The position numbers were made by a program, and so were the translations under genes. From the NCBI GenBank assembly GCA_040757625.1, contig JBFLWU010000015.1, forward strand, positions 7,684-71,683: a stretch of 64,000 bases of DNA, given 5' to 3'. Source of the DNA: Thermodesulfobacteriota bacterium. GTDB taxonomy: Bacteria > Desulfobacterota > Desulfobacteria > Desulfobacterales > JARGFK01. The notes below the pieces were generated by a model. It saw only the letters and a program-made list of their open reading frames with translations, did no database searches and was not told where the DNA came from. Of the stretch, positions 2,466 through 62,514 are shown one piece after another (within the stretch, counting starts at the first letter, position 1; each line of letters begins with the position of its first letter).

Positions 2466-4076
2466 TTACACTTTCACGCGCAGTTTGGCCTGGTTTTCAC
2501 CATTGATGAAATGATCGCCTTTCAGGGCACGTTCGGCTTCCAGTTCCAGTTCCTCATCCCACTGGCCCAGGGAGTATCCGAACCAGGGCGGCTGCGGCGT
2601 CAGCGCAGGCAGGCCCAATTCCTCCCAGATCTTTCGGGCGTTTTCCATGTACTTCTTTTTCGGAAGCGAAATCGGCGGATACGGTTCTTTTAAAATGGCG
2701 TTGACCAGCAGGGCGGACTCGTCGGCCGGATCATGCTGAGACGCAATGTCCGTGCTGACGCTGGCGCCGCCGAAGGGGGGCGCATGACCTTTTTCAAGTC
2801 CCTTCAGAATCTGAACATCTAGATGGGGCTTCATCCGGTAACACATGGCCCACATGACGGCATCCAGGTTTTCGGGATCGATATCGGTGTCCACCGCCAC
2901 CAGAATTTTTCCGACCCCCTGATGAAGGGACACGGTGGCATACAGGGCCCGCCACACTTCCGATTCGCTGGGTTTGTCCATCTGGATGACGATGAATTTT
3001 CGCAGGTTGGTGAGGGGCTCGTGCAGGTATACCCGTTTGACGCACTTGATACTGTATACGTTTTTCAGGTGGTTGATAAACAGAGGCTCATATCCGACCT
3101 TCTTGACTACCGAGCTTTCGCTGGGGGTCACCTGGCTGATCCAGGAAACATAGGTGGCTTTCTTTTTGTGGGTAATGCAGGTGACTTCCATGTACGGATT
3201 GGTCTGGCGCGGATGCATATAGCCGTGGGACTCGCCGAAAGGCCCTTCCGGTTCCAGATATTCGGTCGACATTTTGCCTTCGATGACGATTTCCGCATCC
3301 GCCGGAACTAAAATATCCACGGTTTTACATTTGACCACCGGGATCGGTTCGCCCACCAGGCCGCCGGCAACGGTGATTTCATCAACATCGCGGGGTACTT
3401 TTTGAACGGCCGCATAGGAAACAGCCGGCGGAGCGCCGATGACCAGAGCGGCCTCCAGGGGAACTCCTTTGGCCTTGGCCTTTTCCCAATGTACCTGGAT
3501 GTCCTGCCCCAGGCCGCTGGGGAAGCACCCCACTTTGCGGCGCTGTTTCATCTGGCCCCGGTAATTACCGATATTTTGAATGCCGGTTTCAATATCTTTT
3601 GTAAACCAGTGAGAGCAGGTGGAATAGGGAGCGTTGTCAAAACCGGGCGTTGAAATGGGGACCGGAAAGCGATCGGTGCCGTTGCCTTCCTTGTCCAAAT
3701 CATTTCCCTTGATGACGACTTCCTGGCAGGGCGCTTTATCCACAATAACGGGATCAATCCGATTGGCAAGAGCTTTTTGCCAGATCGTGTTGACCTCTTC
3801 GGGTTTGCAGCCCACGCCGGTGAAATAAATTTCCGGGTTGGCCGCCAGTGCGCCCACAACCACCGGCATGTCATATTTTTTGCCTTTGGCGTCAACTACG
3901 TTTTCAAACAAAAATGCCTTGCGGTCTTTTTCGGCAATGCCGCCGCGGTATTGCCATCTTACCAGCGGATGGAGCTCCGTGTCTTTATTGATTTCTCTTT
4001 TGACACGAACCAGCAGCCCTTTTTTCTCCAGGGTTTTCAGGTGTTGGTTGAGAGTTTTATACCTTTTTGTTGCCAT
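2466..4076 (-). CDS. UbiD-family (prFMN-dependent) decarboxylase, long form L1 (536 aa)
   Basis: ORF 2466..4142 trimmed to the ATG at 4076 (MATKRYKTLNQHL), which has AGGAGGAAGG just upstream. UbiD-like blocks include PVPISTPGFDNAPY, EGPFGESHGYMHPR and GKILVAVDTDIDP. It has an acidic C-terminal extension, GYSLGQWDEELELEAE. Confidence 0.9.
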   Translation of the reverse strand: MATKRYKTLNQHLKTLEKKGLLVRVKREINKDTELHPLVRWQYRGGIAEKDRKAFLFENVVDAKGKKYDMPVVVGALAANPEIYFTGVGCKPEEVNTIWQKALANRIDPVIVDKAPCQEVVIKGNDLDKEGNGTDRFPVPISTPGFDNAPYSTCSHWFTKDIETGIQNIGNYRGQMKQRRKVGCFPSGLGQDIQVHWEKAKAKGVPLEAALVIGAPPAVSYAAVQKVPRDVDEITVAGGLVGEPIPVVKCKTVDILVPADAEIVIEGKMSTEYLEPEGPFGESHGYMHPRQTNPYMEVTCITHKKKATYVSWISQVTPSESSVVKKVGYEPLFINHLKNVYSIKCVKRVYLHEPLTNLRKFIVIQMDKPSESEVWRALYATVSLHQGVGKILVAVDTDIDPENLDAVMWAMCYRMKPHLDVQILKGLEKGHAPPFGGASVSTDIASQHDPADESALLVNAILKEPYPPISLPKKKYMENARKIWEELGLPALTPQPPWFGYSLGQWDEELELEAERALKGDHFINGENQAKLRVKV

Positions 4077-4269
4077 TTCCTTCCTCCTGTTGTGGGTTAA
4101 AGACCGGTCGGCATATTTTGTAAAAAAATGAACAATACCCAAGAAGGTTCATCATTCGGATTGCGAAAAAACAAACCAATTCCGGCTTACCAAGGATTAG
4201 AGAAGTCGCAGCATCACTGAAGCCGAAGGATTGCAGCTATTTTTCGATGCGGCCGAATTAACTACAATA

Positions 4270-21936: not shown

Positions 21937-22629
21937 TCAGGGTTGCGCCAACCGGCGCACATAATAGTTCCAGAACTCCTGGATATTTTTGGAATAGAAA
22001 ACCTGTTCGCCCTTGCCGGCCGACTCACTGGCGCCGGTAGCGGTTAAGGCCCCGATTTGCATCGCCGTGACCTGCAGCTTTGCCGCTCTTTCCAGCAGGG
22101 CGGCATAAACGGTCGCCTCTTCAACGGACGTTCCCGCCACCACCACACCGTGATTCTGCATGAGAAGGGCCCGGTGCCCGCCGAGAGCTCCGGCCACTTT
22201 GCCCCCGAGCTCAACGGAGCGGATCAGAAGGGTTGTTTCCTTAAAAACCGGAATGTTGCTGAACAGGCTGCCCTCATGGCTGATGGTTTGAATGGTATGG
22301 CCGGCAGCGGACAAAGCGATGCAGTAGAACGGATGGGTATGGATAACGCAATGGATATGGGGGTTCTTTTTGTAAATTTCAGTATGAATCGGAAATTCCG
22401 AATGTTTACGACCGGCGCCGGCAAGCTGGTTGCCCTCAAAATCGATGAGGATCATATCCTCGGGCGTCATCTCTTCCAGGCCGAGATCATGCGGGTTCAT
22501 GTGTAAAAAATCATCTCCGGGCCGACGCGCGGTGATATGTCCCATGGTAAGGTTCCCATGACCGGTCATCACCAGAATTTTACAGGCCAGAGCCAGTTTT
22601 CGTGACAATTCGGTATCAATCTGCATCAT
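21937..22629 (-). CDS. class II aldolase/adducin-fold protein
   Basis: Trimmed to ATG 22629 (AAGGAGGAAC upstream). VIHTHPFYCIALS His cluster. Confidence 0.85.
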   Translation of the reverse strand: MMQIDTELSRKLALACKILVMTGHGNLTMGHITARRPGDDFLHMNPHDLGLEEMTPEDMILIDFEGNQLAGAGRKHSEFPIHTEIYKKNPHIHCVIHTHPFYCIALSAAGHTIQTISHEGSLFSNIPVFKETTLLIRSVELGGKVAGALGGHRALLMQNHGVVVAGTSVEEATVYAALLERAAKLQVTAMQIGALTATGASESAGKGEQVFYSKNIQEFWNYYVRRLAQP

Positions 22630-22799
22630 GCTGTTCCTCCTTGTGAAGCGAAAGGGTTTGTCGGCCGACTTCATAAATAGTCAAATTAAGGATCTTTCAT
22701 TAAATGTCATCTCAAAAAAAACATGTCTAATTGATTAAGAGGAAGTGGAAAAAAATATCTATGGAGTGAACCGTCGTCACTTCACAGTTTGCCGGCGCT

Positions 22800-23069
22800 C
22801 CGGCCTGGGATAGCCCCTCCCCCAGTGGGAGCCGTAATCAGAGATTACTGATCCCTATCACGTTCCCTGACCCTTGCGCTGATCCGGAACAGGCAGCGAC
22901 GATCATCATCGTCGCGGCTGTCAGCCTGTGAGGCTGGATCAATGGAACTTGAGCGGGATCGCTGCCGGGCAGTAATGATTCGATAAATACTGATGATTAC
23001 GGCTCCCGGGCCGGAACGGAGAACATGTAAAATAGTCAGCGCCTCCTGAAATAATTATATTTTTTTGAG
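22800..23069 (+). repeat. conserved intergenic element with predicted secondary structure, copy 1 (possible ncRNA or MITE-like element)
   Basis: A perfect 14-bp closing stem (22827..22840 with 22994..23007) encloses core blocks shared with copies 2 and 3: AGATT, TTGCGCTG, GAACAGGCAG, CAATGGAACTTGAGCG, GCTGCCGGG, TTCGATA. The tail ends in TATTTTTTTGAG. Confidence 0.7.
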
Positions 23070-23298
23070 ATAGCTTTTAAATAAACGGTTACCTCAAAAA
23101 ATAAAAGAAAAAAATGCAAGCCGGACCAACGTACCGCCGTGTTCAATCCGAAATCGTCACCACGAGACCATGAGTGCAATTTTTCAATTGATTTTGGAGT
23201 CGTTTTTGAGTAATTTTTTACACATATTAGCCCCCATCTGAATTTGAACCTCTCAAGACTTCCACGTATAAAAAGCGGACGACTGAATGATATTTTCC

Positions 23299-30236: not shown

Positions 30237-30806
30237 ATGGAAAGAATAGTCGTGGGAATGTCGGGCGCATCAGGCGCCATTCTGGGCATCAGGCTGCTGG
30301 AAGTCCTGTCGGTGTCCGATTTTGAGGTCCACCTGGTGATTTCCGGTTCCGCCAAACGAACGATCGAACTGGAAACGGACTGGCAGCTAAAAGATGTGGA
30401 GGCCCTGGCCTCAAAGGTGCACGATTTCGACGACATCGGCGCCCCCATAGCCAGCGGATCATTCAGGACCAGGGGCATGGCCATTGTGCCGTGCTCCATC
30501 AAGACCCTGTCGGCGCTTGCAAATTCTTACAATACCAACCTGCTGATACGGGCGGCGGATGTTACCCTCAAAGAGCGCCGCCGGCTGGTGGTGGTCCCCC
30601 GGGAGGCGCCGCTGCATGCCGGTCATCTCGATTTGATGGCAAAGGTGGAGCGTCTCAGGGGGATGATTTTGCCGCCGTTTATGACGTTTTACCACCGCCC
30701 CAAAAACCTGGACGACATGATAAACCACCTCGTGGGCAAGGTTCTGGATTGTTTTCATATCGACAACAACCTGTTCCAGCGGTGGGGAGAAAAAAATAAA
30801 AAATGA
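30237..30806 (+). CDS. ubiX: UbiX flavin prenyltransferase (prFMN synthase)
   Basis: 189 aa. MERIVVGMSGASGAILGIRLLE, MAIVPCSIKTLSA, RRLVVVPREAPL. Confidence 0.95.
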   Translation: MERIVVGMSGASGAILGIRLLEVLSVSDFEVHLVISGSAKRTIELETDWQLKDVEALASKVHDFDDIGAPIASGSFRTRGMAIVPCSIKTLSALANSYNTNLLIRAADVTLKERRRLVVVPREAPLHAGHLDLMAKVERLRGMILPPFMTFYHRPKNLDDMINHLVGKVLDCFHIDNNLFQRWGEKNKK

Positions 30807-30819: not shown

Positions 30820-32280
30820 ATGAAGCACCGAATTCCCTACGAAGACCTGAGAGGCTGGCTGGATCAGGCCCGCAAGCTGAACGAGGTCAAAGACGTCGAC
30901 GGCGCCAGCTGGCAGGAAGACATCGGCATGGCCACGGAATTGCTGCATCATTCGGATCCGGCGCCGGCTGCACTGTTTGACAATATTCCCGGCTATCCTC
31001 AAGGATACCGCGTTCTGACCAATTTTTTCGGCGCCAGACGCATGAACATGACCCTGGGATTTCCGACCGACTTGAGCCGGGTCGAGCTTTCCAACGCCTT
31101 TACCGAGGTCTATCAGTCCGTCAAACCGATTCCGCACGAATATGTCAAAGACGGCCCCATTTTTGAGAATATCCAGGAAGGCGATAATGTCAACGTGCTC
31201 TCTTTCCCGACCCCTTTCTGGCACGAACAGGATGGCGGCCGCTATATCGGCACCGGCAGTTACGACATCACCCGGGACCCGGACGAGAACTGGATCAACC
31301 TCGGGACCTACCGCGTAATGGTGCACGACGAAAAAAGCTTGGGATTTTATATCTCCCCCGGCAAACACGGGCGGGTCCATCGCGACAAATTCATGGCCCT
31401 GAAGCAGCCGATGCCGGTGGTCGTGGTGGTCGGCGGCGATCCTTTCCTTTATTTGATGGCCTGCAACGAAGTCCCTTACGGCATCTGCGAGTACGACCTG
31501 GCGGGCGGCTTCCGCGGCAAGCCCTATCCGGTCGTCAAGGGTCGGGTGACCGGCCTGCCGATACCGGCCCATGCCGAAATCGCCCTGGAGGGCTTTGTCG
31601 ATCCGCGCAAAAGGCGGCAGGAAGGACCCTTCGGTGAATGGACCGGGTATTACGCCAGCGGCGCGCGCGAAGAACCGGTGGTGGACGTCAAGGCGATTTA
31701 TCACCGCAACAATCCCATTATTCTGGGCTGTCCCCCCAACCGGCCGCCGGATGAAATCGCCCGCTACCGGGCGGTGGTCCGATCCGGCCTGCTGAAACAG
31801 CAGCTGCTCAACAGTGGCCTTTCCGGAATCAAAGCGGTCTGGGGCCATGAGGTGGGCAGTTCGCGTATGCTCCTGACCGTCGCCATCGAGCAGCGCTACG
31901 CCGGGCATGCCACCCAGGTGGGTCACGTCGCCTCGCAATGCCATGTGGGGGCTTATGCCGGCAAGTATGTCATCGTGGTGGACGACGATATCGACGTCTC
32001 CGATCTTGAAGCGGTCATGTGGGCCGTGGTTTCACGTTCGGATCCGGCCACGTCCATCGATATCATTCACAACGCCTGGTCGACGCATCTCGACCCGCGG
32101 ATCCCTCCGGAAGACAAGCACAAGGGGCAGCTGACCAACTCCCGCGCCATTATCGACGCGACCCGTCCCTTTGCCTGGAAAGAACAGTTTCCGCTGGTGA
32201 ACATGCCCAGCCCGGAAACCGCGCGGAAGGCCAGGGAAAAATTCGGTTACCTGCTCGACGGGTTCTGCAAGTCGCTTTAA
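30820..32280 (+). CDS. UbiD-family decarboxylase/carboxylase, 486 aa (U4)
   Basis: Starts 13 nt after the ubiX stop. Blocks QDGGRYIGT, EGPFGEWTGYY, EQRYAGHATQ, VIVVDDDID, SRAIIDATRPF. Confidence 0.9.
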   Translation: MKHRIPYEDLRGWLDQARKLNEVKDVDGASWQEDIGMATELLHHSDPAPAALFDNIPGYPQGYRVLTNFFGARRMNMTLGFPTDLSRVELSNAFTEVYQSVKPIPHEYVKDGPIFENIQEGDNVNVLSFPTPFWHEQDGGRYIGTGSYDITRDPDENWINLGTYRVMVHDEKSLGFYISPGKHGRVHRDKFMALKQPMPVVVVVGGDPFLYLMACNEVPYGICEYDLAGGFRGKPYPVVKGRVTGLPIPAHAEIALEGFVDPRKRRQEGPFGEWTGYYASGAREEPVVDVKAIYHRNNPIILGCPPNRPPDEIARYRAVVRSGLLKQQLLNSGLSGIKAVWGHEVGSSRMLLTVAIEQRYAGHATQVGHVASQCHVGAYAGKYVIVVDDDIDVSDLEAVMWAVVSRSDPATSIDIIHNAWSTHLDPRIPPEDKHKGQLTNSRAIIDATRPFAWKEQFPLVNMPSPETARKAREKFGYLLDGFCKSL

Positions 32281-32392
32281 ATCCATGATCGCTGTCAACG
32301 CTTGAGAGGTAAATGACGACGGTGAATCAAAGGAAGCGTTTATTAAAGAATTGAAAAACAAAAAAGAGAGCTGGACAACAGGAGATCAAAAC

Positions 32393-33829
32393 ATGGCACA
32401 TAAGGACTTGAGAGATTGGCTGAAAAAAGTTGAAAAGATGGGGCAGTTGAAAAAGGTTGATGGCGCCAACTGGGACCTGGAAATGGGGGCCATCACCGAG
32501 CTGATATACCAGGAGGGCAAGGGGACCCCCCCGGCCGTTTTGTTCGACCAGGTTCCCGGGTACCCGAAAGGCTTCCGGGCGCTCTTCGGGATGACCTGTT
32601 CGGTGGAAAGAATGGCCCTGACGTTGAACCTGCCGCCCGTTAAAACCGGCGTCGAACTGGTCCGGGCGTATCGTAACAAACTCAAGGATTTTAAACCGAT
32701 ACCCCCCCGATATGTAAAGGACGGCCCCATATTTGAAAATATCGACCGGGGCGACGACGTCAACGTCCTCAAGTTTCCGGTGCCGCTCCATCATGAACTC
32801 GACGGCGGCCGTTATATCGGTACGGGCTGTATGACCATGACCCGCGATCCGGAGGAGGGGTGGGTCAATTTCGGCGCCTACCGCGTCATGGTGCACGATG
32901 AAAAGACGATCGGCTTTTATATTTCGCCGGGCAAGCACGGCAACCTCCAGCGCCAGAAATATTTTGACAAGAACCAGCCCTGCCCGGCGGTGGTGTGCGT
33001 GGGGCAGGATCCGATGCTGTTCCTGGCTTCGGGCAACGAGGTCCCCTACGGCCTGTCCGAATACGATTACGCCGGCGGTTTTAAAGGCGAACCCATCGAC
33101 GTGGTCAAGGCCGAGTATACCGGATTCCCCATCCCGGCACATGCGGAAATCGTCCTGGAGGGCGAAGCGGTCCCCGGCGATGAAAAACTGGAAGGCCCCT
33201 TCGGCGAGTGGTCCGGCTATTACGCCAGCGACGCGAGGGTGGAGCCGGTGATCCGGGTCAAGAACGTTTATTACCGCAAGAATCCGATCCATACCTGCGC
33301 CCGTCCCGGAAGGCCGCCTTCGGACTACTCTTTCAGCAAATGCGTCGTCAAGTCGGCCATGATCTGGGATGAGCTGGAGAAGGCCGGCGTTCCCAACGTC
33401 AGGGGGGTCTGGTGCCACGAGGCCGGCGGCGGCAGGATGTTCAATATCGTCTCCATCAAGAACTCCTACCCGGGACACTCCCGCCAGGCCGGCATGATTA
33501 CCTCCCAGTGCCATGCCGGCGCTTACCTGGGAAGATATGTCGTGGTGGTGGATGACGATATCGATCCCTCCAACACCTTTGACGTTCTCTGGGCGATTGC
33601 CTCGCGTTCCGAACCGACCGAATCCATCGAAATCATCCGCAGCTGCTGGAGCGGACCGCTGGATCCCCGCATTCCCGAGGAGCGAAAGGGGCTCAATTCA
33701 CGGGCGATCATCGATGCCTGCCGTCCCTATCAGTGGCGCAAACGCTTTCCGGCCGTGGCGGAATCGAGTCCGGAGCTGAAGAAAAAGACGCTGAAGAAAT
33801 GGCACCGAACGATTTTTGACGGAAAATAA
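32393..33829 (+). CDS. UbiD-family decarboxylase/carboxylase, 478 aa (U5)
   Basis: ORF 32351 trimmed to ATG 32393 (AGGAG RBS). Blocks LDGGRYIGT, EGPFGEWSGYY, KNSYPGHSRQ, VVVVDDDIDP, SRAIIDACRPY. Confidence 0.9.
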   Translation: MAHKDLRDWLKKVEKMGQLKKVDGANWDLEMGAITELIYQEGKGTPPAVLFDQVPGYPKGFRALFGMTCSVERMALTLNLPPVKTGVELVRAYRNKLKDFKPIPPRYVKDGPIFENIDRGDDVNVLKFPVPLHHELDGGRYIGTGCMTMTRDPEEGWVNFGAYRVMVHDEKTIGFYISPGKHGNLQRQKYFDKNQPCPAVVCVGQDPMLFLASGNEVPYGLSEYDYAGGFKGEPIDVVKAEYTGFPIPAHAEIVLEGEAVPGDEKLEGPFGEWSGYYASDARVEPVIRVKNVYYRKNPIHTCARPGRPPSDYSFSKCVVKSAMIWDELEKAGVPNVRGVWCHEAGGGRMFNIVSIKNSYPGHSRQAGMITSQCHAGAYLGRYVVVVDDDIDPSNTFDVLWAIASRSEPTESIEIIRSCWSGPLDPRIPEERKGLNSRAIIDACRPYQWRKRFPAVAESSPELKKKTLKKWHRTIFDGK

Positions 33830-33873
33830 AAGCGCAATACCTTCGACCATTACGCTTAACAAAAGGAGATCAC

Positions 33874-34440
33874 ATGACCGGACAGGAAACAAAGGATTAC
33901 AGCGACATCTGGGCCGCCGGACAGGAGAAATATCAGAAGCAGCGGCTTTACGTGAGAGCGATCGCCGGTTTCAGCTACAGCATGGCGCAGCAGCTCAAGG
34001 AACTGCGGAGCGTCCCGCGCGTCATGAAGGCAAAAGATCTGAAATTCGCCAAGGGCCCGCAGTATTTCAACTGTACCATCCTCAGTCCCATCCGCAACAT
34101 GGCCCAGTCGATCTTTACGCACATGTGCGTCCTGACGCCGGAGGGCAAATCCCAGAAGCACGGGCACGTGAACGAGGCCATTTTCTTCATACTGGACGGC
34201 GAAGGATATGACATCCACGACGGAGAGCGGCAGGACTGGAAGGCCGGCGATATCGCCATTGTCCCGAATTCAACAGTGCATCAGCACTTCAATAAGAGCA
34301 AGGACAAACTGGCGCGGGTGCTGATCATCAAGACCAAGCCTTTCTATCATTTCATGAATATGTTTTTCCAGGAAGTGGTGGAACCGCAGCCGAAGACGCC
34401 TGTTCCCGGTTATGAGGATTTTAAGCCCAGCATTACCTAA
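33874..34440 (+). CDS. monocupin, gentisate-dioxygenase-like, type A (second pair)
   Basis: AAGGAG RBS. SQKHGHVNEAIFFILDG and GDIAIVPNSTVHQHFN. Paralog of 8621..9163. Confidence 0.75.
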   Translation: MTGQETKDYSDIWAAGQEKYQKQRLYVRAIAGFSYSMAQQLKELRSVPRVMKAKDLKFAKGPQYFNCTILSPIRNMAQSIFTHMCVLTPEGKSQKHGHVNEAIFFILDGEGYDIHDGERQDWKAGDIAIVPNSTVHQHFNKSKDKLARVLIIKTKPFYHFMNMFFQEVVEPQPKTPVPGYEDFKPSIT

Positions 34441-34475
34441 ACAGCCTGCTAATGTCGAAAGGGGAGGATAACGTT

Positions 34476-35027
34476 ATGGATTACGGAGAGAAAAAATATG
34501 CCCAGCCCAAGGCGCCCACGGCGACCTACTACCAGGATCGCCTGGTCGAGGTTCAGAAGGCCAAGACCGCCCATAAGCGATCGGTCGTTTCCGCCGAAGA
34601 GATGGAGTGGGAGCTTTGCCAGCAGGGTCACATCAAGCACCTGGTGAACGAAAAGATGGAAACCGCCTCCAATACCCTCGATATCTGCATGCAGGTTATT
34701 CCCGGCGGGAGCCGCTCGGGCAAGCATTGCCACATGGCCGAGGAATATATGTTCATCTTGGAGGGAAAGGGCTATTCGCTGCACTGGGATGTCGATTTCG
34801 AGTTGGGTGAAGCCTATTACTGGAAAGCCCAGGAAACGCCGTCCAAGTGGGAATGGGAGCGGGGCGACTCGGTTTACATCCCGCCCAATACGGTTCACCA
34901 GCACTTTAATTCCGATCCCAAAAACCCGGTTCGCTTTATTTCGGCGGAAAGCCGCATGTTCAAGTACATGGGGCTGGACACCCTGGAGCAGTTCGAGAAC
35001 GCTCCGGAATTCGACCGGAAGAAGTAA
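34476..35027 (+). CDS. monocupin, gentisate-dioxygenase-like, type B (second pair)
   Basis: ORF 34452 trimmed to ATG 34476 (GGGGAGGA 7 nt upstream). SRSGKHCHMAEEYMFILEG and GDSVYIPPNTVHQHFN. Paralog of 9178..9729. Confidence 0.8.
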   Translation: MDYGEKKYAQPKAPTATYYQDRLVEVQKAKTAHKRSVVSAEEMEWELCQQGHIKHLVNEKMETASNTLDICMQVIPGGSRSGKHCHMAEEYMFILEGKGYSLHWDVDFELGEAYYWKAQETPSKWEWERGDSVYIPPNTVHQHFNSDPKNPVRFISAESRMFKYMGLDTLEQFENAPEFDRKK

Positions 35028-35166
35028 GGATCCGGGTTCAGAGGGACCAAGTTCGAACCCAGGCCCGGCTGGCATGAGTTTGAGCCTTCAGCGGCATTAT
35101 TCGCTTGTCCGGTAAGTTGCGATGGTGAAACGGAATATCCATTAATCCGAATTTCGAGAGAATTTT

Positions 35167-36624
35167 ATGAGTCGAAACATTAAATACCACGATCTGAGAG
35201 AATTCCTGTCCATCGTGGATTCCTTCGGGGAGCTTAAGATCATCAGCCGTCTTCATTGGGACAGGGAAATGGGCGCCCTAACGGAGATGGTTTACCGTGA
35301 AAAACCGGTGGATTCTCCGGCCCTGCTGTTCAACAAGGTGCCGGGTTATCCGGATGGCTTTCAATGCCTTTACGGCATGCTGGCGTCTCCGCGCCGGTTC
35401 GGACTGGCGATGGGGCTTGACGTGAGCGGTGAAATTTCGCGGATGGACCTGCTGCAAGCCTATCGCGCCAGGATGAAAGGGATGACCCCGATCCCGCCCC
35501 GGGTCGTAAAGACCGGCGCTGTCATGGAAAATGTACTGGAGGGGGAGGCCGTCGACCTGCTGAAATTCCCCGTGCCGATTCATCACGAACTTGACGGCGG
35601 CCGCTATATCGGTACGGCCTGCGGCGTTATCACGCGGGATCCTGACGAAGGCTGGGTGAACGTGGGAACGTACCGGGTCCAGGTGATCGCCAAAGACCGG
35701 GCGACCGTCTACATCTCCCAGGGAAAGCAGGGCCGGATTCAGCGGGACAAATACCTGAAAAGCGGCCGGCCCTGCCCGGTGATGGTGGTGGTGGGCATCG
35801 ATCCCCTGCTGTACGTGGCCGCGCGCTACCAGGTCCCGCTGCGGTTGTCCGAGTTCGATTTCGCCGGCGGCATCGCCGGGGAACCCATCGAAGTCATCGA
35901 GGGGGAGTCTACCGGCCTGCCGTTTCCCGCCAATGCCGAAATCGTCATCGAAGGCGAGATCTCGCCGGACGAGAAGGTGCCGGAAGGCCCCTTCGGCGAA
36001 TGGAACGGCTATTACGCCGGTTCCCAAAAAACAGAATACGTGATGAAGGTCAAACGGATCCTGCATCGCCATGATCCCATCCTGACCTGCGCGGCTTCCC
36101 AGCGGCCGCCCCATTCCCATCTGTTTGAGCGCTGTTTTATCCGTTCCGCCGGTTTATGGGAAAAGCTAGAAAAGGCCGACTGCCCCAGCATCAAGGGCGT
36201 GTGGGTTCATGAAGCCGGTTCGGGACGGACCTTCAACGTCGTTTCCATCAAACAGGAGTACTACGGCCATTCACGCCAGGCCGCCCTGCTGGCGTCCCAA
36301 CTGCCGCCGGCCGGGTATGTCAACCGGTTTACCGTGGTGGTGGACGACGACATCGATCCTTCCTATCTTTACGACGTCATCTGGGCCATGGGGACCCGCT
36401 GCAACCCGGAGGCGGATATCGATATTCTGCGCAAAAACTGGAGCAGCCGCCTGGATCCCCTGACTTTCACCGATGCGCTCTATAATTCCCGTGCGGTCAT
36501 CGATGCCTGCATCCCTTATGAACATCGCGATGATTTTCCCAAAATCGCCCAGACATCGCCGGAGTATAAAAAGTTCATGATGGAAAAATACGGGAATCTG
36601 ATCAGGGAAATCCTAAGTAAATGA
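35167..36624 (+). CDS. UbiD-family decarboxylase/carboxylase, 485 aa (U6)
   Basis: Blocks LDGGRYIGT, EGPFGEWNGYY, KQEYYGHSRQ, TVVVDDDIDP, SRAVIDACIPYE. Confidence 0.9.
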   Translation: MSRNIKYHDLREFLSIVDSFGELKIISRLHWDREMGALTEMVYREKPVDSPALLFNKVPGYPDGFQCLYGMLASPRRFGLAMGLDVSGEISRMDLLQAYRARMKGMTPIPPRVVKTGAVMENVLEGEAVDLLKFPVPIHHELDGGRYIGTACGVITRDPDEGWVNVGTYRVQVIAKDRATVYISQGKQGRIQRDKYLKSGRPCPVMVVVGIDPLLYVAARYQVPLRLSEFDFAGGIAGEPIEVIEGESTGLPFPANAEIVIEGEISPDEKVPEGPFGEWNGYYAGSQKTEYVMKVKRILHRHDPILTCAASQRPPHSHLFERCFIRSAGLWEKLEKADCPSIKGVWVHEAGSGRTFNVVSIKQEYYGHSRQAALLASQLPPAGYVNRFTVVVDDDIDPSYLYDVIWAMGTRCNPEADIDILRKNWSSRLDPLTFTDALYNSRAVIDACIPYEHRDDFPKIAQTSPEYKKFMMEKYGNLIREILSK

Positions 36625-36649
36625 GAGGTCGGGGGACTAGGGGGTGATC

Positions 36650-36858
36650 CCCCTTTGGTTGCGGTCCGCCCGGGGCTATCCCCCGTGGGAGCCGTAACCA
36701 AAGATTCCTGTGCCCTGTACGCGCCCCCCCATAACCTTTGCGCTGTTACAGAACAGGCAGAGATGATCATCGCCGCCGGGGAAACCAGCCTGCTGGGGGT
36801 AGTTCAATGGAACTTGAGCGGGACCGCTGCCGGGCGGTCATGCTTCGATAGGAAGATG
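36650..36858 (+). repeat. conserved structured element, copy 2 (5' hairpin plus core), abutting the ATG of the next gene
   Basis: It has the same core blocks as copies 1 and 3. The 5' arm GGGAGCCGTAACCAAAG (36687..36703) pairs locally with the upstream CTTTGGTTGCGGTCC (36653..36667) rather than with a downstream arm. The core ends ...TTCGATAGGAAGATGAT-ATG. Confidence 0.7.
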
Positions 36859-36860
36859 AT

Positions 36861-37958
36861 ATGACCCTGTTTTTGAACAACGACGACGTCAGGCGCGTCC
36901 TCACCATGGAGCTGACCATCCGGGCCCTGGAGGAATCCTACACGCGCATGATCCAGGGCGAGGGGGTATGCCGTCCGCGGATCGACGTCCAGATCCCCAC
37001 CAGCGACCCGGCTAAAACCTACCGCTGGGGAACCATGGAGGGGGGCTCGGCCAGCGGGTATTTCGCCATCCGAATGAAATCGGACATCGCCTTTGAAAAA
37101 CGCTACAGCGGCAGCATCACCCTGGAAAAGTACTGCATGGTGCCGGGAACGTTTTGCGGGCTGATATTTCTGTTCCGGGTCGATACCGGCGAGCCCCTGG
37201 CCATTTTAAACGATGGCTATCTTCAGCATCTGCGCGTGGGGGCCGATTCGGCCCTGGGCGTCCGCTACATGGCCCGGGAGGATGCGGAAACGGTGGGAAT
37301 GTTCGGATCCGGCGGCATGGCCAGGAGCCACATGGAATCGTTTTGCCTGGTCAGAAACATCAAGCGGCTCAAGGTGTACAGTCCCACCCGAAAAAACCGC
37401 GAAGCCTATGTCCGCGAGATGGAAGCGACCTATGGGATAGAGGCCGTCGCCCTGGACAATCCTGAAGATGTGTACAAGGACGCCGACATCCTGTGCAGCT
37501 GCACCGACGCCAGCGTGCCGGTGATACGGGGGTGCCATGTCCGCAAGGGGACCCATATCACCTCCATCGGCGGCCGCCCCGATGCGGATACGTTTAAAAA
37601 GATCGACCGGTTTCTGCGCTTTGGCAACGCCACGCCGCCTTTCGGCTGCGACCAGCCGGTGGTGGATGAATTCCTGCGGTACGTTACCCCTAAAATGGGT
37701 GGCGGCATCAAGCGCGAACACTCCCATGCCCGGGGAGTCGTTGGGGCAATCGCCGGGGAACGGGTGGTCTATTTAAAGGATATTCTCGCTGGCAGGAAAG
37801 GCCGGCAGACACCGGACGACATTACTTACTCGGAGCGGGGAAATCTTCAGGGCGCTCAGTTTTACGCAGTTGCCGGAAAGGTCTATGAACTTGCCCGGCA
37901 GCAGGGTTTGGGCAGGGAAATACCAACGGAATGGTTTCTGCAGGATATCCGTGATTAG
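36861..37958 (+). CDS. ornithine cyclodeaminase/mu-crystallin-family NAD(P)-dependent enzyme
   Basis: 365 aa. N-terminus LFLNNDDVRRVLTMELTIRALEESY and the Rossmann segment VGMFGSGGMARSH. Confidence 0.8.
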   Translation: MTLFLNNDDVRRVLTMELTIRALEESYTRMIQGEGVCRPRIDVQIPTSDPAKTYRWGTMEGGSASGYFAIRMKSDIAFEKRYSGSITLEKYCMVPGTFCGLIFLFRVDTGEPLAILNDGYLQHLRVGADSALGVRYMAREDAETVGMFGSGGMARSHMESFCLVRNIKRLKVYSPTRKNREAYVREMEATYGIEAVALDNPEDVYKDADILCSCTDASVPVIRGCHVRKGTHITSIGGRPDADTFKKIDRFLRFGNATPPFGCDQPVVDEFLRYVTPKMGGGIKREHSHARGVVGAIAGERVVYLKDILAGRKGRQTPDDITYSERGNLQGAQFYAVAGKVYELARQQGLGREIPTEWFLQDIRD

Positions 37959-38009
37959 AAGCTGTCTCAAAATAATTATACTCTAAAGCCTGCTAAATAA
38001 TAAATGGTC

Positions 38010-38093
38010 GAGTGGCTGGGGCTGTCCCGGATTGGACCGGAGAGCATTTAAAATACCCTCCGACCCCTGTAATAGTGATATATTTTTTTTGAG
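38010..38093 (+). repeat. detached 3' arm remnant and tail of element copy 2
   Basis: GGCTGGGGCTGTCCCGG...GGACCGGAGAGCATTTAAAATA...ATATATTTTTTTTGAG is homologous to the tails of copy 1 (23001..23069) and copy 3 (55820..55930). Confidence 0.6.
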
Positions 38094-38137
38094 CCCGCTT
38101 ATAAAAGTCTTTCTAAGAGAATGGAGGAATCAAGCGA

Positions 38138-42241: not shown

Positions 42242-43696
42242 TCAGATATCCGTCCAGCGCCCGTTGAATTTAGATTTCCATTTGTCAAAAACTTCCTGGC
42301 GCAGCTTTTCGCTATTTAATGAAGTCGGTGGAAATTCATTCATCCATTCATAGGGTTTGACTGCGTAGATAATGCCGTGGGAGTTGGTATAATCATTGGT
42401 CGGTTTGCGGATGCGGGGATCCAGCGGGCCGCTCCAGGACCGTTTGATGATATCCATTTCCTTGGGGTCCGAGCGGGTACAGATGGCCCACATGACGTCT
42501 TCCATGTCGTAGGGGTTGATATCTTCATCCACCACCACGACATACCGTCCGATGTAGGCACCGGCCCGGGTCTGGGAAGCGATATGACCGGCTTCGGTGG
42601 CATGGCCCGGGTAGCTCTGTTTAATGGAGACCACCGTAAAGAGACGGGAGCCGCCGAAAGCCGGGCACCACACCCCCCGGACTTCGGGGATGCCGGCCCG
42701 TTCGATTTCATTATATACCAGTGCCGAGCGCCAGACAGCCCGCCAGAAACCCTGGTCGCTGGCCAGGCCCTTTGAGGGCGGTGATCCCAACAGAATGGGG
42801 TTATTGCGGTAATATAAGGCTTCAACCTTGACAAACGGCTCCTCCCTGCCTTTACTGGCATACGTGCCGGTCCACTCACCGAAGGGTCCTTCAAACTTCT
42901 GATCGCCGGGATTGGCGATTCCCTCCAGAACGATTTCCGCATTTGCCGGAAACGGCAGGCCGGTCACTTTGCCTTTGATGACCGGAACGGGTTCCTCTCT
43001 GACGGCGCCCATGTAGTCCAGCTCGTAAATGCCGGTGGGGATTTCACTGGCGGAGAGGATATAGCTGAGGGGATCGAAGCCCACCACCATTACCACCGGG
43101 CATGGTTCGCCTCTCTGGAAGTATTTATCGCGGTGGATGCGGCTGTGCTTGCCGGGTGAGATGTAAAATCCGACATGCCGGCTGTCATGCAGCATGACCC
43201 GGTAGGTTCCCATATTGACGATGCCGGTATCAGGATCCCGGGTGATAACGCCGACGCCGGTGCCGATATATCTGCCGCCGTCATGCTCGTGCCAAAGGGG
43301 GACCGGAAATTTTTCGAGATCGACCTTGTCGCCTTCTTCAACATTTTCGAGAACCGGTCCGGAATCTACAACCCGGCAGGGAAAATCTTTGGCGGACTGC
43401 GCCCATTGGCCCGCTTTGGTTTTCAGCGTTTCAATCGTTTGCCGGATACTGTTTTCAACCGGCAGGCCGAAGGTCAGGTTGACGGTTCGGATATTGGCCA
43501 CTGAATTGGTGACGATCCGAAGTCCTTTCCGATATCCCTTCACCTCGTCGAATAAAAGCGCCGGACCCTGGTTGCGCCCGTTGATTTGGACCATGGTTCC
43601 GATTTCCAGATGAGGATCGGCACCTTCAACGACTTGTAATTCTCCGATATTTTCTACCTGTTTCAGCCATTCTCTCATGTCCTTGAAAGCGATCAT
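42242..43696 (-). CDS. UbiD-family decarboxylase/carboxylase, 484 aa (U7)
   Basis: Trimmed to ATG 43696 (MIAFKDMREWL), 1 nt after the upstream gene's stop. Blocks HDGGRYIGT, EGPFGEWTGTY, KQSYPGHATE, VVVVDEDINP. Confidence 0.9.
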   Translation of the reverse strand: MIAFKDMREWLKQVENIGELQVVEGADPHLEIGTMVQINGRNQGPALLFDEVKGYRKGLRIVTNSVANIRTVNLTFGLPVENSIRQTIETLKTKAGQWAQSAKDFPCRVVDSGPVLENVEEGDKVDLEKFPVPLWHEHDGGRYIGTGVGVITRDPDTGIVNMGTYRVMLHDSRHVGFYISPGKHSRIHRDKYFQRGEPCPVVMVVGFDPLSYILSASEIPTGIYELDYMGAVREEPVPVIKGKVTGLPFPANAEIVLEGIANPGDQKFEGPFGEWTGTYASKGREEPFVKVEALYYRNNPILLGSPPSKGLASDQGFWRAVWRSALVYNEIERAGIPEVRGVWCPAFGGSRLFTVVSIKQSYPGHATEAGHIASQTRAGAYIGRYVVVVDEDINPYDMEDVMWAICTRSDPKEMDIIKRSWSGPLDPRIRKPTNDYTNSHGIIYAVKPYEWMNEFPPTSLNSEKLRQEVFDKWKSKFNGRWTDI

Positions 43697-43697
43697 A

Positions 43698-44171
43698 TTA
43701 CTTGTTGTCCTTTTTTTCCTCTTTTTTCGGTTTTTCAAAAAAGTTCACCGGCGTTACCGCCAGCGGGTTATAGTCCGTGTCAGTGACCTGAATGGTATAG
43801 GCGCCTTTCTTAATCAGTTTTTTGCTGATATATCGACCCGCATTCCAGGTGGTCGACCATGTGCCGGTCTCGTCGGCTTTGGGTTCCGGCTCCAATTCCG
43901 ATCCGATATCGGTGAGGACGCCATCCACATCGGTAATCAGAAAGACGATTTCCTTCCCCGGCTCAAATCCTGTCCCCATCAGAATAACTTCGGTTTTCTT
44001 GTCCATGGCAACGTTCGGCGTAGCCGCAACGACTACGGGCTCAAGAACGCCCGGGCTTTTCGACGTATCGCCGGTGTCGGCTTCTTTGGCCTTCATGGTG
44101 GCGCAGCCGGTCAGGGCGATCAGGCTGATAGCAAGCGAGAGCGCCAGCAACTGAATAAGTGATTTTTTCAT
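43698..44171 (-). CDS. lipoprotein of unknown function with a Lys-rich C-terminal tail
   Basis: Signal peptide with lipobox LTGC (MKKSLIQLLALSLAISLIALTGC). The tail is FFEKPKKEEKKDNK. Paralog of 44512..44958. Confidence 0.7.
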   Translation of the reverse strand: MKKSLIQLLALSLAISLIALTGCATMKAKEADTGDTSKSPGVLEPVVVAATPNVAMDKKTEVILMGTGFEPGKEIVFLITDVDGVLTDIGSELEPEPKADETGTWSTTWNAGRYISKKLIKKGAYTIQVTDTDYNPLAVTPVNFFEKPKKEEKKDNK

Positions 44172-55550: not shown

Positions 55551-55607
55551 TAAATTTTTAATTATTTCAGGATTCAGAGAGTATTTTATACGTTCTTCGA
55601 TCCGGTC

Positions 55608-55930
55608 TGGGACAGCCTTCAGGCCCCGTGAGGCCGGAATCAAAGATTGCTGATCTCCGTTCACGCCCCCTGACCGTTGCGCTGCTCCGGAACAGGCAGA
55701 GACGGTCATTGTCGCCGGGGGAATCAGCCCTTTGGAGCTGGTTCAATGGAACTTGAGCGTGATTGCTGCCGGGTGTTAATGATTCGATAAGATGGTTCCG
55801 GCTCTCACGGGGCGTGGGGGCTGTCCCAGGCCGGGCCGCCGGCAAACGGTGAGGAAACGACGGCATACTTCATAGAAGATTATAATTTAACTCTCCGACC
55901 TTTCACTCATTTAGAGTCTATTTTTTTGAG
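55608..55930 (+). repeat. conserved structured element, copy 3 (most complete closing helix)
   Basis: Outer stem CTGGGACAGCC (55608..55618) pairs with GGCTGTCCCAG (55820..55830). Inner stem CCCCGTGAGGCCGGAATCA pairs with TGGTTCCGGCTCTCACGGGG. Same core blocks and TATTTTTTTGAG tail as the other copies. Confidence 0.7.
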
Positions 55931-55968
55931 ATGAATAATTGATAGATACAAACCAGGGGGAGCACGTT

Positions 55969-56613
55969 ATGAGTGATGAGAAAAAGCAACCGGCAGAAGA
56001 AGAAAAGAACGGGTGGGGAATCGAAAAAATCCCTTACCCTAAGGGTGTCGCCTATATTTCCGCGCGCTGGGATGTCTGCGTCGGCTGCGGCGCTTGTGAG
56101 ATGGCCTGTTCCATGTTTCATTACGGCACCGTCAACCGGGAACTCTCCCGGATCCGGATCTACCGTTACCTGTTGCCGCTGCCGAAATCCGTTCAGAATG
56201 TCTGTTCGCAGTGTCCGGAAAAAGAGAGAGAGTGTCAGAAAGCATGCCCGGAAGATCCCCCTGTGATTCATTATGACCCCGAGCGGCAGCATATGGTCGT
56301 TGACGAAGACCGCTGCCTGGGGTCCGGCTGCGGCCAGTGTCGGGACGCGTGTCCGGCCCAGGTGCCGCGGTTTTATCCGCCGGAGCAGGATGTGTCGATG
56401 GTCTGCGATCTGTGTGAAAAAGACGGCCGGCGGCGGCCCCAGTGCGTCGAGATTTGCCCCACCCAGGCCCTGGAGTTTATTTCGCCCAAAATTCCGCACC
56501 ATCTGGAGCGGATTCATCCGGATGAAAAAGCGGCCAGCCTGGCCAATCGGCTCTATCCGCTGCCAAAGGGCAGGGTGATTCGAATGCCCGAAGAAATCTG
56601 GGGAGGCAAATGA
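55969..56613 (+). CDS. poly-ferredoxin-like 4Fe-4S cluster protein (electron-transfer partner of AOR)
   Basis: Trimmed to ATG 55969. Four Cys clusters: CVGCGACEMAC, CSQCP..CQKACP, CLGSGCGQCRDACP, CDLC..CVEICP. Confidence 0.85.
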   Translation: MSDEKKQPAEEEKNGWGIEKIPYPKGVAYISARWDVCVGCGACEMACSMFHYGTVNRELSRIRIYRYLLPLPKSVQNVCSQCPEKERECQKACPEDPPVIHYDPERQHMVVDEDRCLGSGCGQCRDACPAQVPRFYPPEQDVSMVCDLCEKDGRRRPQCVEICPTQALEFISPKIPHHLERIHPDEKAASLANRLYPLPKGRVIRMPEEIWGGK

Positions 56614-62470: not shown

Positions 62471-62514
62471 TTGACACCTAAATAATATCATTCTATATAG
62501 AACCATATTAATTT
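62471..62514 (+). promoter_or_regulatory. sigma70 promoter TTGACA-17-TATATA with shared 22-nt motif CTATATAGAACCATATTAATTT
   Basis: -35 at 62471..62476, -10 at 62494..62499, motif at 62493..62514. Confidence 0.6.

What the first reader, a model, noticed from the sequence alone, without database searches (positions are those of the whole stretch)
22800..23069. Unclassified conserved intergenic element with predicted structure, present three times on the + strand
Copies lie at 22800-23069, 36650-36858 (plus tail 38010-38093) and 55608-55930. They share invariant blocks in the same order: AGATT, TTGCGCTG, GAACAGGCAG, CAATGGAACTTGAGCG, GCTGCCGGG, TTCGATA. These blocks are separated by hairpins whose sequences differ while pairing is kept. 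One hairpin reads CGACGAT/ATCGTCG in copy 1 and GACGG/TTGTC in copy 3. Another reads CAGCC/GGCTG, CAGC/GCTG and CCAG/CTGG in the three copies. A long closing helix joins the 5' and 3' ends and shows compensatory changes: copy 1 CCGTAATCA:TGATTACGG, copy 3 CCGGAATCA:TGGTTCCGG, copy 2 CCGTAACCA:TGGTTGCGG. No ORF is conserved across the copies. I cannot match the element to any riboswitch or ncRNA class I know. Compensatory substitutions argue for a functional RNA or a hairpin-recognising DNA process rather than random repeats.
Basis: seen in the sequence. Interest (0 to 1): 0.8.

Follow-up and report, generated by a model that had tools for sequence, protein, structure and literature searches.

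The report
Mobile palindromic intergenic repeat (MITE-like)
The three "structured elements" are copies of a roughly 390-bp non-coding palindromic repeat that has inserted between genes of a Desulfobacterales catabolic gene island, so it looks like an ordinary small mobile DNA element and not a new riboswitch or RNA gene.

Summary
The repeat is real, but it is larger than described and of a different kind.

**Anatomy.** Each full copy is a ~385-395 bp imperfect palindrome. It has ~24-26 nt terminal inverted repeats (consensus TTAGAAGCTATCTCAAAAAAATA), two unequal arms, ~40-nt inner inverted repeats and a ~150-nt core.

**Copies.** The window holds two full copies (22695-23085; ~55551-55937), one truncated copy fused to a gene start (36625-36860) and one core-less, internally deleted copy (37955-38104). 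I found one further copy, in a metagenome contig (L031).

**Evidence for insertion.**
- Four relatives with the same operon (79-91% identical enzyme) have only 35-58 nt where the window has 418 nt.
- The L031 copy also splits a gene pair that overlaps in relatives.

**Evidence against a specific RNA.**
- Flanking genes differ between copies.
- There is no Rfam match.
- Covariation is not above shuffled controls.
- There is no consistent strand bias in folding energy.

**Unexpected features.**
- The core of copy 1 is inverted relative to its arms.
- A 14-codon mini-ORF is conserved in all four cores.
- A 17-nt block is invariant.

**Verdict.** This is most likely a new MITE-like family (confidence ~0.6). 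A regulatory or RNA role after insertion is not excluded. The target-site duplication and the partner transposase are unresolved.

The parts
22695..23085 (.). Copy 1, full length (391 bp). The long arm is on the left and the short arm on the right, so the arms are reversed relative to copy 3 while the core is in the same + orientation.
   Evidence: Inverted termini. BLAST and arm markers. nhmmer.
22695..22720 (.). Copy 1 left terminal inverted repeat (TTTCATTAAATGTCATCTCAAAAAAA)
   Evidence: I1: 26 nt, 81% complementary to 23060-23085. Termini alignment.
23060..23085 (.). Copy 1 right terminal inverted repeat (TTTTTTTGAGATAGCTTTTAAATAAA). On the minus strand it carries a promoter-like TTTAAA-16-TATAAT reading inward.
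22741..22797 (-). Copy 1 long-arm marker segment, in reverse orientation relative to copy 3 (55835-55909)
   Evidence: local alignment score 25, against a shuffle maximum of 14
22827..22840 (.). Copy 1 inner inverted repeat, 5' strand of the closing helix (GGGAGCCGTAATCA)
   Evidence: I2: 14 nt, 100% complementary to 22994-23007
22994..23007 (.). Copy 1 inner inverted repeat, 3' strand of the closing helix (TGATTACGGCTCCC)
   Evidence: I2
22841..22993 (+). Copy 1 core (~150 nt). It contains the invariant 17-mer TCAATGGAACTTGAGCG at 22939-22955.
22942..22986 (+). Copy 1 mini-ORF: ATG, 13 further codons, then TAA (MELERDRCRAVMIR). GAGG lies 8 nt upstream.
   Evidence: and direct reading
36625..36860 (+). 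Copy 2, truncated. It has a degenerate left arm, the inner 5' arm and the core. It has no terminal repeats and no 3' arm. It ends inside the 3' strand of the closing helix, exactly at the start codon of the OCD/mu-crystallin-family gene (36861).
36653..36703 (.). Copy 2 local hairpin, CTTTGGTTGCGGTCCGCCCGGGG / CCCCGTGGGAGCCGTAACCAAAG.
   Evidence: I2: 23 nt, 78% complementary, 5 nt between the arms
36807..36851 (+). Copy 2 mini-ORF (MELERDRCRAVMLR, stop TAG). Its stop overlaps AGGAAG and lies 9 nt before the ATG of the OCD-like gene.
37955..38104 (.). Core-less, internally deleted copy (150 bp). It keeps both termini (37955-37980 / 38079-38104), the outer long arm, part of the inner 3' arm and the short arm.
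   Evidence: I1: 26 nt, 81%. Also.
55551..55937 (.). Copy 3, ~385 bp, with the short arm left and the long arm right. The left terminus is shortened. It is inserted directly after the stop codon of the TPP-enzyme gene (55550) and upstream of the ferredoxin gene RBS and ATG (55969).
55602..55632 (.). Copy 3 inner inverted repeat, left
   Evidence: I1: 31 nt, 87% complementary to 55804-55834
55804..55834 (.). Copy 3 inner inverted repeat, right
   Evidence: I1
55746..55790 (+). Copy 3 mini-ORF (MELERDCCRVLMIR, stop TAA). GGAG lies 8 nt upstream.
55835..55909 (+). Copy 3 long-arm marker segment. It matches L031 in the same position and copy 1 in reverse.
55559..55605 (-). Copy 3 short arm, the reverse complement of the short arm of copy 1 (23011-23060)
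   Evidence: score 27, against a shuffle maximum of 15

Best explanation
The element is a member of a small family of non-autonomous, palindromic (foldback) mobile DNA repeats, that is, a MITE-like element.

**Shown**
- It is a ~390-bp non-coding unit bounded by ~24-nt terminal inverted repeats.
- It has long complementary arms.
- It has been inserted into AT-rich spacers right at gene boundaries. Orthologous sites in relatives lack it.
- It exists as full, truncated and internally deleted copies.

**Inferred**
- A transposase encoded elsewhere recognises the termini and moves it as DNA.
- Arm complementarity is kept either because master copies need it or through arm-to-arm correction. That would explain the 'compensatory' changes in the closing helix without any RNA function.
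- The core, the 14-codon ORF and its Shine-Dalgarno-like box may be a remnant of the 5' region of the parent insertion sequence.
- The central segment can flip by recombination or template switching between the inner inverted repeats, as seen in copy 1.
- After insertion the element is co-transcribed with the host operon. Its long hairpin, T-run and promoter-like short-arm terminus may alter processing or expression of neighbouring genes, as reported for Correia and ERIC elements.
For: **Insertion polymorphism**
- In the window, the TPP-enzyme stop and the ferredoxin ATG are 418 nt apart.
- In relatives with 91, 87, 87 and 79% identical TPP enzyme and the same gene order, the gap is 35, 39, 58 and 41 nt.
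- Homologs of the archease gene next to the L031 copy (81% and 78% identical) overlap their upstream gene by 8 nt in relatives.

**Termini and arms**
- Terminal inverted repeats are shared by independent loci.
- The left arm of copy 1 equals the reverse complement of the right arm of copy 3, 71% over 157 nt.

**State of the copies**
- There are full, truncated and internally deleted copies.
- Flanking genes are unrelated.
- The core is no better conserved than the arms: 76-82% against 71-83% identity.

**Tests that gave no support for an RNA**
- No Rfam hit.
- No covariation above controls.
- No consistent plus/minus folding asymmetry.
- No canonical terminator and no consistent promoter.

**Precedent**
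Promoters, small ORFs, inversion, truncated copies and insertion within operons are all reported for prokaryotic MITEs (review PMC10969869).
Against: - No consistent target-site duplication. CCTTA flanks L031 and AATAA flanks copy 3, but copy 1 and the deleted copy show none at the same boundary, and the flanks are AT-rich.
- No transposase, integrase or reverse transcriptase is encoded in the 64-kb window, and no autonomous partner was found.
- Only five copies are known. One exact-pattern scan of each collection found only L031.
- An invariant 17-mer and clustered conserved blocks (P=0.003-0.006) point to some site-specific constraint.
- The mini-ORF keeps its start, frame and stop in all four cores.
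- The three copies that sit inside + strand gene strings are all co-oriented with them (n=3, not significant).
Confidence: 0.6

Rival explanations
1. The element is a cis-acting structured RNA, either a leader/attenuator with a translated 14-codon upstream ORF or a riboswitch-like sensor. It would be transcribed on the + strand and control the downstream catabolic genes. A ribosome reaching the ORF's stop codon, 2-7 nt before the 3' strand of the closing helix, would modulate formation of the long helix.
For: - MFE z-scores of -3.2 and -5.7.
- An invariant 17-mer and clustered conserved blocks.
- The mini-ORF has a GGAG-like box 8 nt upstream, keeps frame and stop (TAA/TAA/TAA/TAG), and has 6 of 11 variable sites at third codon positions (and reading).
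- In copy 2 its stop overlaps the Shine-Dalgarno sequence of the OCD-like gene, 9 nt before the ATG.
- Predicted helix 3 keeps several G-U pairs on the + strand in all copies.
- The core is co-oriented with the downstream gene in all four copies.
Against: - The element is absent from orthologous operons of close relatives, so it is not a conserved regulatory part of these genes.
- Downstream genes are unrelated.
- No Rfam match.
- Covariation equals the shuffled controls and the RNAalifold covariation term is unfavourable.
- The strand preference of the fold differs between copies.
- The first five codons are invariant even at third positions, which points to a nucleotide-level constraint and not a coding one.
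- The third-position excess is not significant (binomial P about 0.12, my own estimate).
- No terminator-like hairpin plus T-run was found by the scan.
Confidence: 0.13
2. The element is an invertible DNA switch (inverton). A recombinase flips the ~150-210 bp core between the ~40-nt inner inverted repeats. This changes whether transcription from the promoter-like short-arm terminus runs sense or antisense through the core and into neighbouring genes.
For: - The core of copy 1 is inverted relative to its arms when compared with copy 3 and L031. Long-arm and short-arm markers score 21-34 against shuffle maxima of 12-15.
- Inner inverted repeats of 14-41 nt at 85-100% complementarity flank the core.
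- A TATAAT with a -35-like hexamer reads inward from the short-arm terminus in copy 1 and in L031.
- Inversion of Correia elements has been reported (PMC10969869).
Against: - Only one inversion event is needed to explain the data, and any long inverted repeat can flip its spacer occasionally.
- No recombinase gene is in the window.
- No read-level evidence of both orientations at one locus is available.
- The whole 390-bp unit, not just the switch, is missing from the relatives' sites.
- Promoter-like matches are inconsistent between copies.
Confidence: 0.07
3. The element is a host-maintained intergenic palindrome of the REP/BIME or ERIC type. Its main role would be at the mRNA level, as an RNase III/E processing site, a stabiliser or a partial terminator that sets relative expression within long catabolic operons. 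It would spread rarely, by recombination and not by a dedicated transposase.
For: - Copy 3 and L031 lie exactly at cistron boundaries inside operons, and the downstream RBS is kept intact.
- Near-perfect 30-45 bp helices are plausible RNase III substrates.
- A few more double changes occur in the arms than I would expect by chance: 2-3 between copy 3 and L031, against about 0.6 expected by my own rough estimate.
- There is no transposase nearby and the copy number is low.
Against: - The conserved terminal inverted repeats at independent loci, and the clean presence/absence pattern, fit transposition better.
- Copy 1 lies between divergent genes, where operon processing is not relevant.
- Nothing about processing can be tested here.
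Confidence: 0.12

Closest known systems
Correia repeat-enclosed elements (CREE/NEMIS) of Neisseria
   Same: - Non-coding, with ~26-nt terminal inverted repeats.
- Inserted next to or between genes and co-transcribed.
- Folds into a long hairpin.
- Some subtypes carry sigma-70-like promoters.
- Inversion of the element has been reported, as has RNase III cleavage at the paired termini (PMC10969869).
   Different: - Correia elements are 100-200 bp, have a TA duplication and an IHF site, and occur in over 100 copies per genome.
- This element is ~390 bp with a 150-nt conserved core, unequal arms and inner inverted repeats.
- Only five copies are known and the TA duplication is unproven.
- There is no sequence similarity.
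ERIC / RU-type enterobacterial palindromic repeats
   Same: - An imperfect palindrome found in intergenic spacers of operons.
- Presence/absence polymorphism between related genomes.
- Small ORFs have been described inside them.
- Their effects on mRNA decay depend on orientation (PMC10969869; PMC2759123, listed).
   Different: - ERIC is 127 bp and found in Gammaproteobacteria.
- This element is three times longer and comes from a Desulfobacterales-like organism.
- There is no sequence similarity.
Chunjie MITE of Geobacter uraniireducens
   Same: - A MITE in a deltaproteobacterial-type genome, inserted within an operon without destroying it.
- The family includes full-length, shortened and partial copies that lack termini (PMC10969869).
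   Different: - Chunjie is 178-235 bp, has clear direct repeats and occurs in dozens of copies.
- Here the direct repeats are inconclusive and few copies are known.
Riboswitches and other cis-regulatory RNAs (Rfam)
   Same: - Intergenic, upstream of genes on the same strand.
- A multi-helix predicted fold with conserved single-stranded blocks.
   Different: - No Rfam family matches.
- It is not conserved at orthologous positions.
- The downstream genes are unrelated.
- Covariation is not above controls.
- It carries terminal inverted repeats and arms 100-150 nt long.
Invertible promoters (fimS, Bacteroides fin regions)
   Same: A ~150-210 bp segment flanked by inverted repeats, found in both orientations relative to its flanks when copies are compared.
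   Different: - No recombinase is nearby.
- Both orientations were not observed at any one locus.
- The inverted repeats are embedded in a larger mobile palindrome.

Membership tests
MITE (non-autonomous transposable element) | Short (under ~600 bp) and without a transposase gene | tested here: met
   Copies are 385-395 bp. The only conserved ORF is 14 codons. The six-frame translations found no protein homolog at E<=10.
MITE (non-autonomous transposable element) | Terminal inverted repeats shared between copies | tested here: met
   24-26 nt termini, 81-83% complementary within a copy and alignable between loci. Consensus TTAGAAGCTATCTCAAAAAAATA. The left terminus of copy 3 is shortened and copy 2 lacks termini.
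MITE (non-autonomous transposable element) | Target-site duplication flanking each copy | tested here: inconclusive
   CCTTA flanks L031 and AATAA flanks copy 3. Nothing is found at the equivalent boundary of copy 1 or of the deleted copy. TA or TTA at every end may simply be part of the repeat. The flanks are AT-rich.
MITE (non-autonomous transposable element) | Presence/absence polymorphism at orthologous sites (evidence of insertion) | tested here: met
   Copy 3: the gap is 418 nt, against 35-58 nt in four relatives. L031: relatives have the two genes overlapping by 8 nt.
MITE (non-autonomous transposable element) | Multiple dispersed copies in one genome | tested here: met
   There are four loci within 64 kb. 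The genome-wide copy number could not be tested because the source genome is not in the searchable collections.
MITE (non-autonomous transposable element) | An autonomous partner (insertion sequence) with the same termini | not testable with these tools
   No transposase is in the window. The collections could be scanned only once each, by exact pattern.
Riboswitch / cis-regulatory RNA | Match to a curated RNA family | tested here: not met
   There are 0 hits at the gathering threshold over the window. Only noise appears at E<=10.
Riboswitch / cis-regulatory RNA | Conserved association with one class of genes, and conserved position in orthologous loci | tested here: not met
   Downstream genes are UbiD-like, OCD-like, ferredoxin/AOR and archease. 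The element is absent from the orthologous loci.
Riboswitch / cis-regulatory RNA | Covariation supporting the internal helices | tested here: inconclusive
   The covariation score is 0.134 against 0.124 +/- 0.016 in shuffles, with 151/500 at least as high. The 2 pairs with double changes both lie in the closing helix. With only four sequences the power is very low.
Invertible promoter (inverton) | Segment bounded by inverted repeats and found in both orientations at one locus | not testable with these tools
   Inverted repeats are present. The two orientations are seen only between different copies. No reads are available.
Invertible promoter (inverton) | Cognate site-specific recombinase | tested here: not met
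   Pfam found none among ~54 window ORFs. One could be encoded elsewhere.
Integron attC / gene cassette | 57-141 bp site with RYYYAAC ... GTTRRRY core sites, next to an integron integrase | tested here: not met
   The element is ~390 bp and its termini are TTAGAAGC.... No integrase is present. The core-site consensus is from my own knowledge.

The most novel reading that the evidence does not exclude
The element is a mobile regulatory cassette and not inert selfish DNA. On this reading:
- a promoter in the short-arm terminus drives a structured leader;
- the leader contains a translated 14-codon ORF (MELERDRCRAVMIR);
- the ~150-nt core can be flipped between the inner inverted repeats;
- insertion therefore places neighbouring anaerobic aromatic-acid catabolic genes under a switchable, translation-coupled control module that can spread between operons and between organisms.
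Probability: 0.08. Interest if true: 0.65.

Novelty: new member of a known kind. Interest (0 to 1): 0.3.

Why it matters
As a MITE-like repeat, it is mainly useful for annotation.
- It explains three unusually long, strongly folding intergenic regions in a UbiD-rich catabolic island.
- It warns against calling them riboswitches.
- It gives a marker of recent genome change in an uncultured Desulfobacterales lineage.

It also adds an example of a mobile palindrome inserted inside operons with the downstream RBS intact. In L031 a start codon appears to have been recruited from the terminal repeat.

If the conserved core, the mini-ORF or the core inversion proved functional, it would be a rare case of a transposable regulatory module in anaerobic degraders. 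The present evidence does not show that.

Tried and rejected
**Known RNA and tRNA classes**
- Rfam gathering scan of the whole window, plus E<=10 scans of two copies, gave only noise (STnc300, snoRNA and miRNA models far below threshold).
- ARAGORN found no tRNA or tmRNA in the window, so the element is not tRNA-derived.
- Sigma-54 promoter pattern: none inside the elements, and fewer matches than in shuffles.

**Searches for more copies**
- Genome-collection scan with AATGGAACTTGAGCGN{3,8}GCTGCC gave 3 hits, all chance matches in other sequence.
- Metagenome scan gave 30 loci, of which only L031 is a true homolog.
- Two viral-contig scans gave nothing real.
- blastn against the plasmid and phage collections gave no match.
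- Concatenated six-frame translations of the element against 5.8 billion proteins, meant to catch spurious ORFs called over other copies, gave none at E<=10.
- A 21.7-kb locus from a more distant relative (L107) holds no copy. Its 284-nt spacer at the same junction is unrelated.
- The N-terminally extended archease P0127 has an extension unrelated to the element.

**Ideas considered and dropped**
- Circular permutation of copy 2. The upstream segment is simply the normal 5' arm, alignable to the left arm of L031.
- A core element nested inside an arms-only element. The deleted copy still carries part of the inner 3' arm.
- Integron attC, retron, diversity-generating retroelement. The size is wrong and no integrase or reverse transcriptase is present.
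- Group II intron domain V. GAGCCGTA...TACGGCTC is a superficial resemblance and there is no Rfam hit.
- Type I toxin-antitoxin locus. There is no conserved hydrophobic ORF.

**Did not work**
- Exact look-up of the window's OCD-like protein: not on record.

Full report

Yes. The three + strand copies share the listed blocks in the same order. A profile built from the cores finds them, and nothing else, in the window at E = 1e-55 to 1e-59. Their minimum free energies lie 3.2 and 5.7 standard deviations below dinucleotide shuffles. The 17-nt run TCAATGGAACTTGAGCG is longer than expected from the overall column conservation (P = 0.006).

**2. The element is larger than described.**

Inverted-repeat and BLAST analysis show each full copy to be a ~385-395 bp imperfect palindrome. 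From the outside in it has:
- ~24-26 nt terminal inverted repeats, consensus TTAGAAGCTATCTCAAAAAAATA (copy 1: 22695-22720 and 23060-23085);
- two arms of unequal length, a long one of ~150 nt and a short one of ~95-110 nt;
- inner inverted repeats of 14-41 nt at 85-100% complementarity (copy 1: 22827-22840 / 22994-23007; copy 3: 55602-55632 / 55804-55834);
- a ~150-nt core.

The window holds four loci.
- Copy 1 (22695-23085) is full length.
- Copy 3 (~55551-55937) is full length with a shortened left terminus.
- Copy 2 (36625-36860) has no termini and no 3' arm. It ends inside the 3' strand of the closing helix, exactly at the ATG (36861) of an ornithine-cyclodeaminase/mu-crystallin-family gene.

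**3. Relatives elsewhere.**

One exact-pattern scan of the genome collection found only chance matches. One scan of the metagenome collection gave 30 loci, of which a single one, L031 (a 1055-bp contig), is a true full-length homolog. It is 75% identical to copy 3 over 390 nt. Two viral-contig pattern scans and blastn against the plasmid and phage collections found nothing. A search with six-frame translations against 5.8 billion proteins also found nothing. The source genome is not in the collections, so its total copy number is unknown.

**4. Insertion polymorphism: the key result.**

Copy 3 lies between a TPP-enzyme gene (stop at 55550) and a ferredoxin/aldehyde-oxidoreductase pair. By homology the ferredoxin ATG is at 55969, so the gap is 418 nt. 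Four metagenomic relatives have the same gene order and much smaller gaps:

| TPP-enzyme identity | Gap |
|---|---|
| 91% | 35 nt |
| 87% | 39 nt |
| 87% | 58 nt |
| 79% | 41 nt |

The last ~35 nt before the window's ATG align with the whole spacer of the closest relative. The extra ~385 bp therefore sits immediately after the stop codon.

L031 tells the same story. The archease gene next to its copy overlaps its upstream gene by 8 nt in the two nearest relatives, which are 81% and 78% identical. So the element was inserted at two independent sites, in two organisms, and is not a conserved part of either operon.

Genes next to the copies are unrelated: UbiD-like decarboxylase, OCD-like, class II aldolase, ferredoxin/AOR and archease. 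No transposase, integrase or reverse transcriptase is encoded in the window.

**5. RNA tests.**

- No Rfam family matches at the gathering threshold, or meaningfully at E<=10.
- RNAalifold gives an unfavourable covariation term: +1.94 on four cores and +5.24 on three cores with their inner arms.
- Pairs changed on both sides number 2 of 46 and 6 of 74. Four of the six lie in the closing helix and inner arms.
- Counting pairs on the consensus structure gives a covariation score of 0.134, against 0.124 +/- 0.016 in shuffles. 151 of 500 shuffles reach it.
- The stability of the + strand fold against the - strand fold differs in sign between copies: -133.8/-139.5, -167.4/-149.5 and -160.9/-175.0 kcal/mol.
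- The core is hardly better conserved than the arms: 76-82% against 71-83% identity.

With four sequences these tests have little power. They give no support for a specific RNA structure beyond a long palindrome. Compensatory change in a long DNA palindrome can also arise from arm-to-arm correction. That last point is inference.

**6. Unexpected features.**

(a) *Core inversion.* The long-arm marker lies on the right in copy 3 and L031 but on the left, reversed, in copy 1. The short-arm marker does the opposite. Alignment scores are 21-34 against shuffle maxima of 12-15. The core is + in all copies, so the core has been inverted relative to the arms at least once.

(b) *A conserved mini-ORF.* All four cores carry a 14-codon ORF at 22942-22986, 36807-36851, 55746-55790 and in L031. 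The peptides are MELERDRCRAVMIR, MELERDRCRAVMLR, MELERDCCRVLMIR and MELERACCRAVMIR.
- A GGAG-like box lies 8 nt upstream.
- The stops are TAA, TAG, TAA and TAA, in the same order as the peptides above.
- There are no indels.
- 6 of 11 variable sites are at third codon positions (and reading).
- The first 14 nt are invariant even at third positions.
- In copy 2 the stop overlaps AGGAAG, 9 nt before the OCD-like ATG.

(c) *A promoter-like terminus.* The short-arm terminus carries a -35-like hexamer, a 15-16 nt spacer and TATAAT, reading inward, in copy 1 and L031. Promoter-like matches are otherwise inconsistent between copies, and no canonical terminator was found.

(d) *A recruited start codon.* In L031 the archease ATG lies inside the right terminal repeat (GAAATGACTTCTAA, against the consensus GAGATAGCTTCTAA). 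Relatives use a TTG that overlaps the upstream stop codon.

**7. Target-site duplication.**

CCTTA flanks L031 and AATAA flanks copy 3. Copy 1 and the deleted copy show none at the equivalent boundary. The TA/TTA found at every end may belong to the repeat itself. This feature is inconclusive.

**8. Interpretation.**

The best-supported reading is a MITE-like family (confidence 0.6). It rests on the non-coding 390-bp unit, the shared terminal inverted repeats, the insertion at gene boundaries with empty orthologous sites, the mix of full, truncated and deleted copies, and the unrelated neighbours.

Every unusual feature has a precedent in prokaryotic MITEs, according to the review PMC10969869:
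- promoters in the element, RNase III cleavage of the paired termini and inversion (Correia);
- small ORFs inherited from a parent insertion sequence (ERIC and others);
- insertion into an operon without destroying it, with many partial copies (Chunjie in Geobacter).

Still inferred, not shown:
- mobilisation by a transposase encoded elsewhere;
- the origin of the core and mini-ORF;
- any effect on transcripts.

Rivals kept open are a leader or attenuator RNA with a translated upstream ORF (0.13), a host-maintained operon-processing palindrome (0.12) and an invertible switch (0.07).

**9. Verdict.**

This is a real feature and a new member of a known kind. It is not a riboswitch. Interest is 0.3. 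The clustered conservation, the mini-ORF and the core inversion deserve a look if more copies or transcript data become available.

Noticed in passing
window 58669-58711 and 62472-62514: Two + strand genes (58844.., NMT1-like; 62643..) are each preceded by cTTGACA followed by a shared AT-rich motif, CTATATAGAACCATA(G/T)TAATTT. The repeat family is 85% identical over 33 nt. This is probably a common promoter and operator for one regulator.
   Followed up: partly
window 1-64000: The window is a dense catabolic island. It holds eight UbiD-like (de)carboxylase genes, a UbiX-like flavoprotein (30237-30806), cupins, three TctABC-type transporter sets, two family III CoA-transferases, a succinyl-CoA-synthetase-like pair, four TPP enzymes, an aldehyde:ferredoxin oxidoreductase and four class II aldolases. 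This suggests anaerobic degradation of aromatic carboxylic acids. The nearest named relatives are Desulfobacterales MAGs.
   Followed up: partly
window 55939-56613: The mechanical ORF starts at TTG 55939. By homology with four relatives (214 aa, conserved MSDE... N-terminus and RBS), the ferredoxin gene starts at ATG 55969.
   Followed up: yes
L031 649-701 (minus strand of the contig): The archease start codon lies inside the right terminal repeat of the element. Two substitutions relative to the repeat consensus create ATGAC. Relatives start at a TTG that overlaps the upstream ADH stop codon. The terminal repeat appears to have been recruited as a start codon.
   Followed up: partly
L107 11696-11978: A more distant relative (GCA_012974985.1, 73% identical TPP enzyme) has an unrelated 284-nt spacer at the same TPP/ferredoxin junction, with a spurious 76-aa minus-strand ORF called over it. 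The junction seems to be a recurrent site of insertion or expansion.
   Followed up: partly
window 36640-36652: A short GC hairpin, GGGGGTGATCCCC, followed by CTTTGGTT lies just after the UbiD-like stop codon (36624). The scan flagged it as terminator-like. It sits within the degenerate left arm of copy 2.
   Followed up: no
window 21937-22674 (minus strand): The class II aldolase gene more likely starts at 22629, where GGAGGA lies 5 nt upstream, than at the longest-ORF ATG at 22674. That would leave ~65 nt between its start and the left end of copy 1.
   Followed up: no
window 2836-3307 vs 42474-42951: The minus-strand UbiD-like genes 2466-4142 and 42242-43738 share 75-81% identical stretches. 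They are paralogs in addition to the tandem + strand set at 30820-36624.
   Followed up: no
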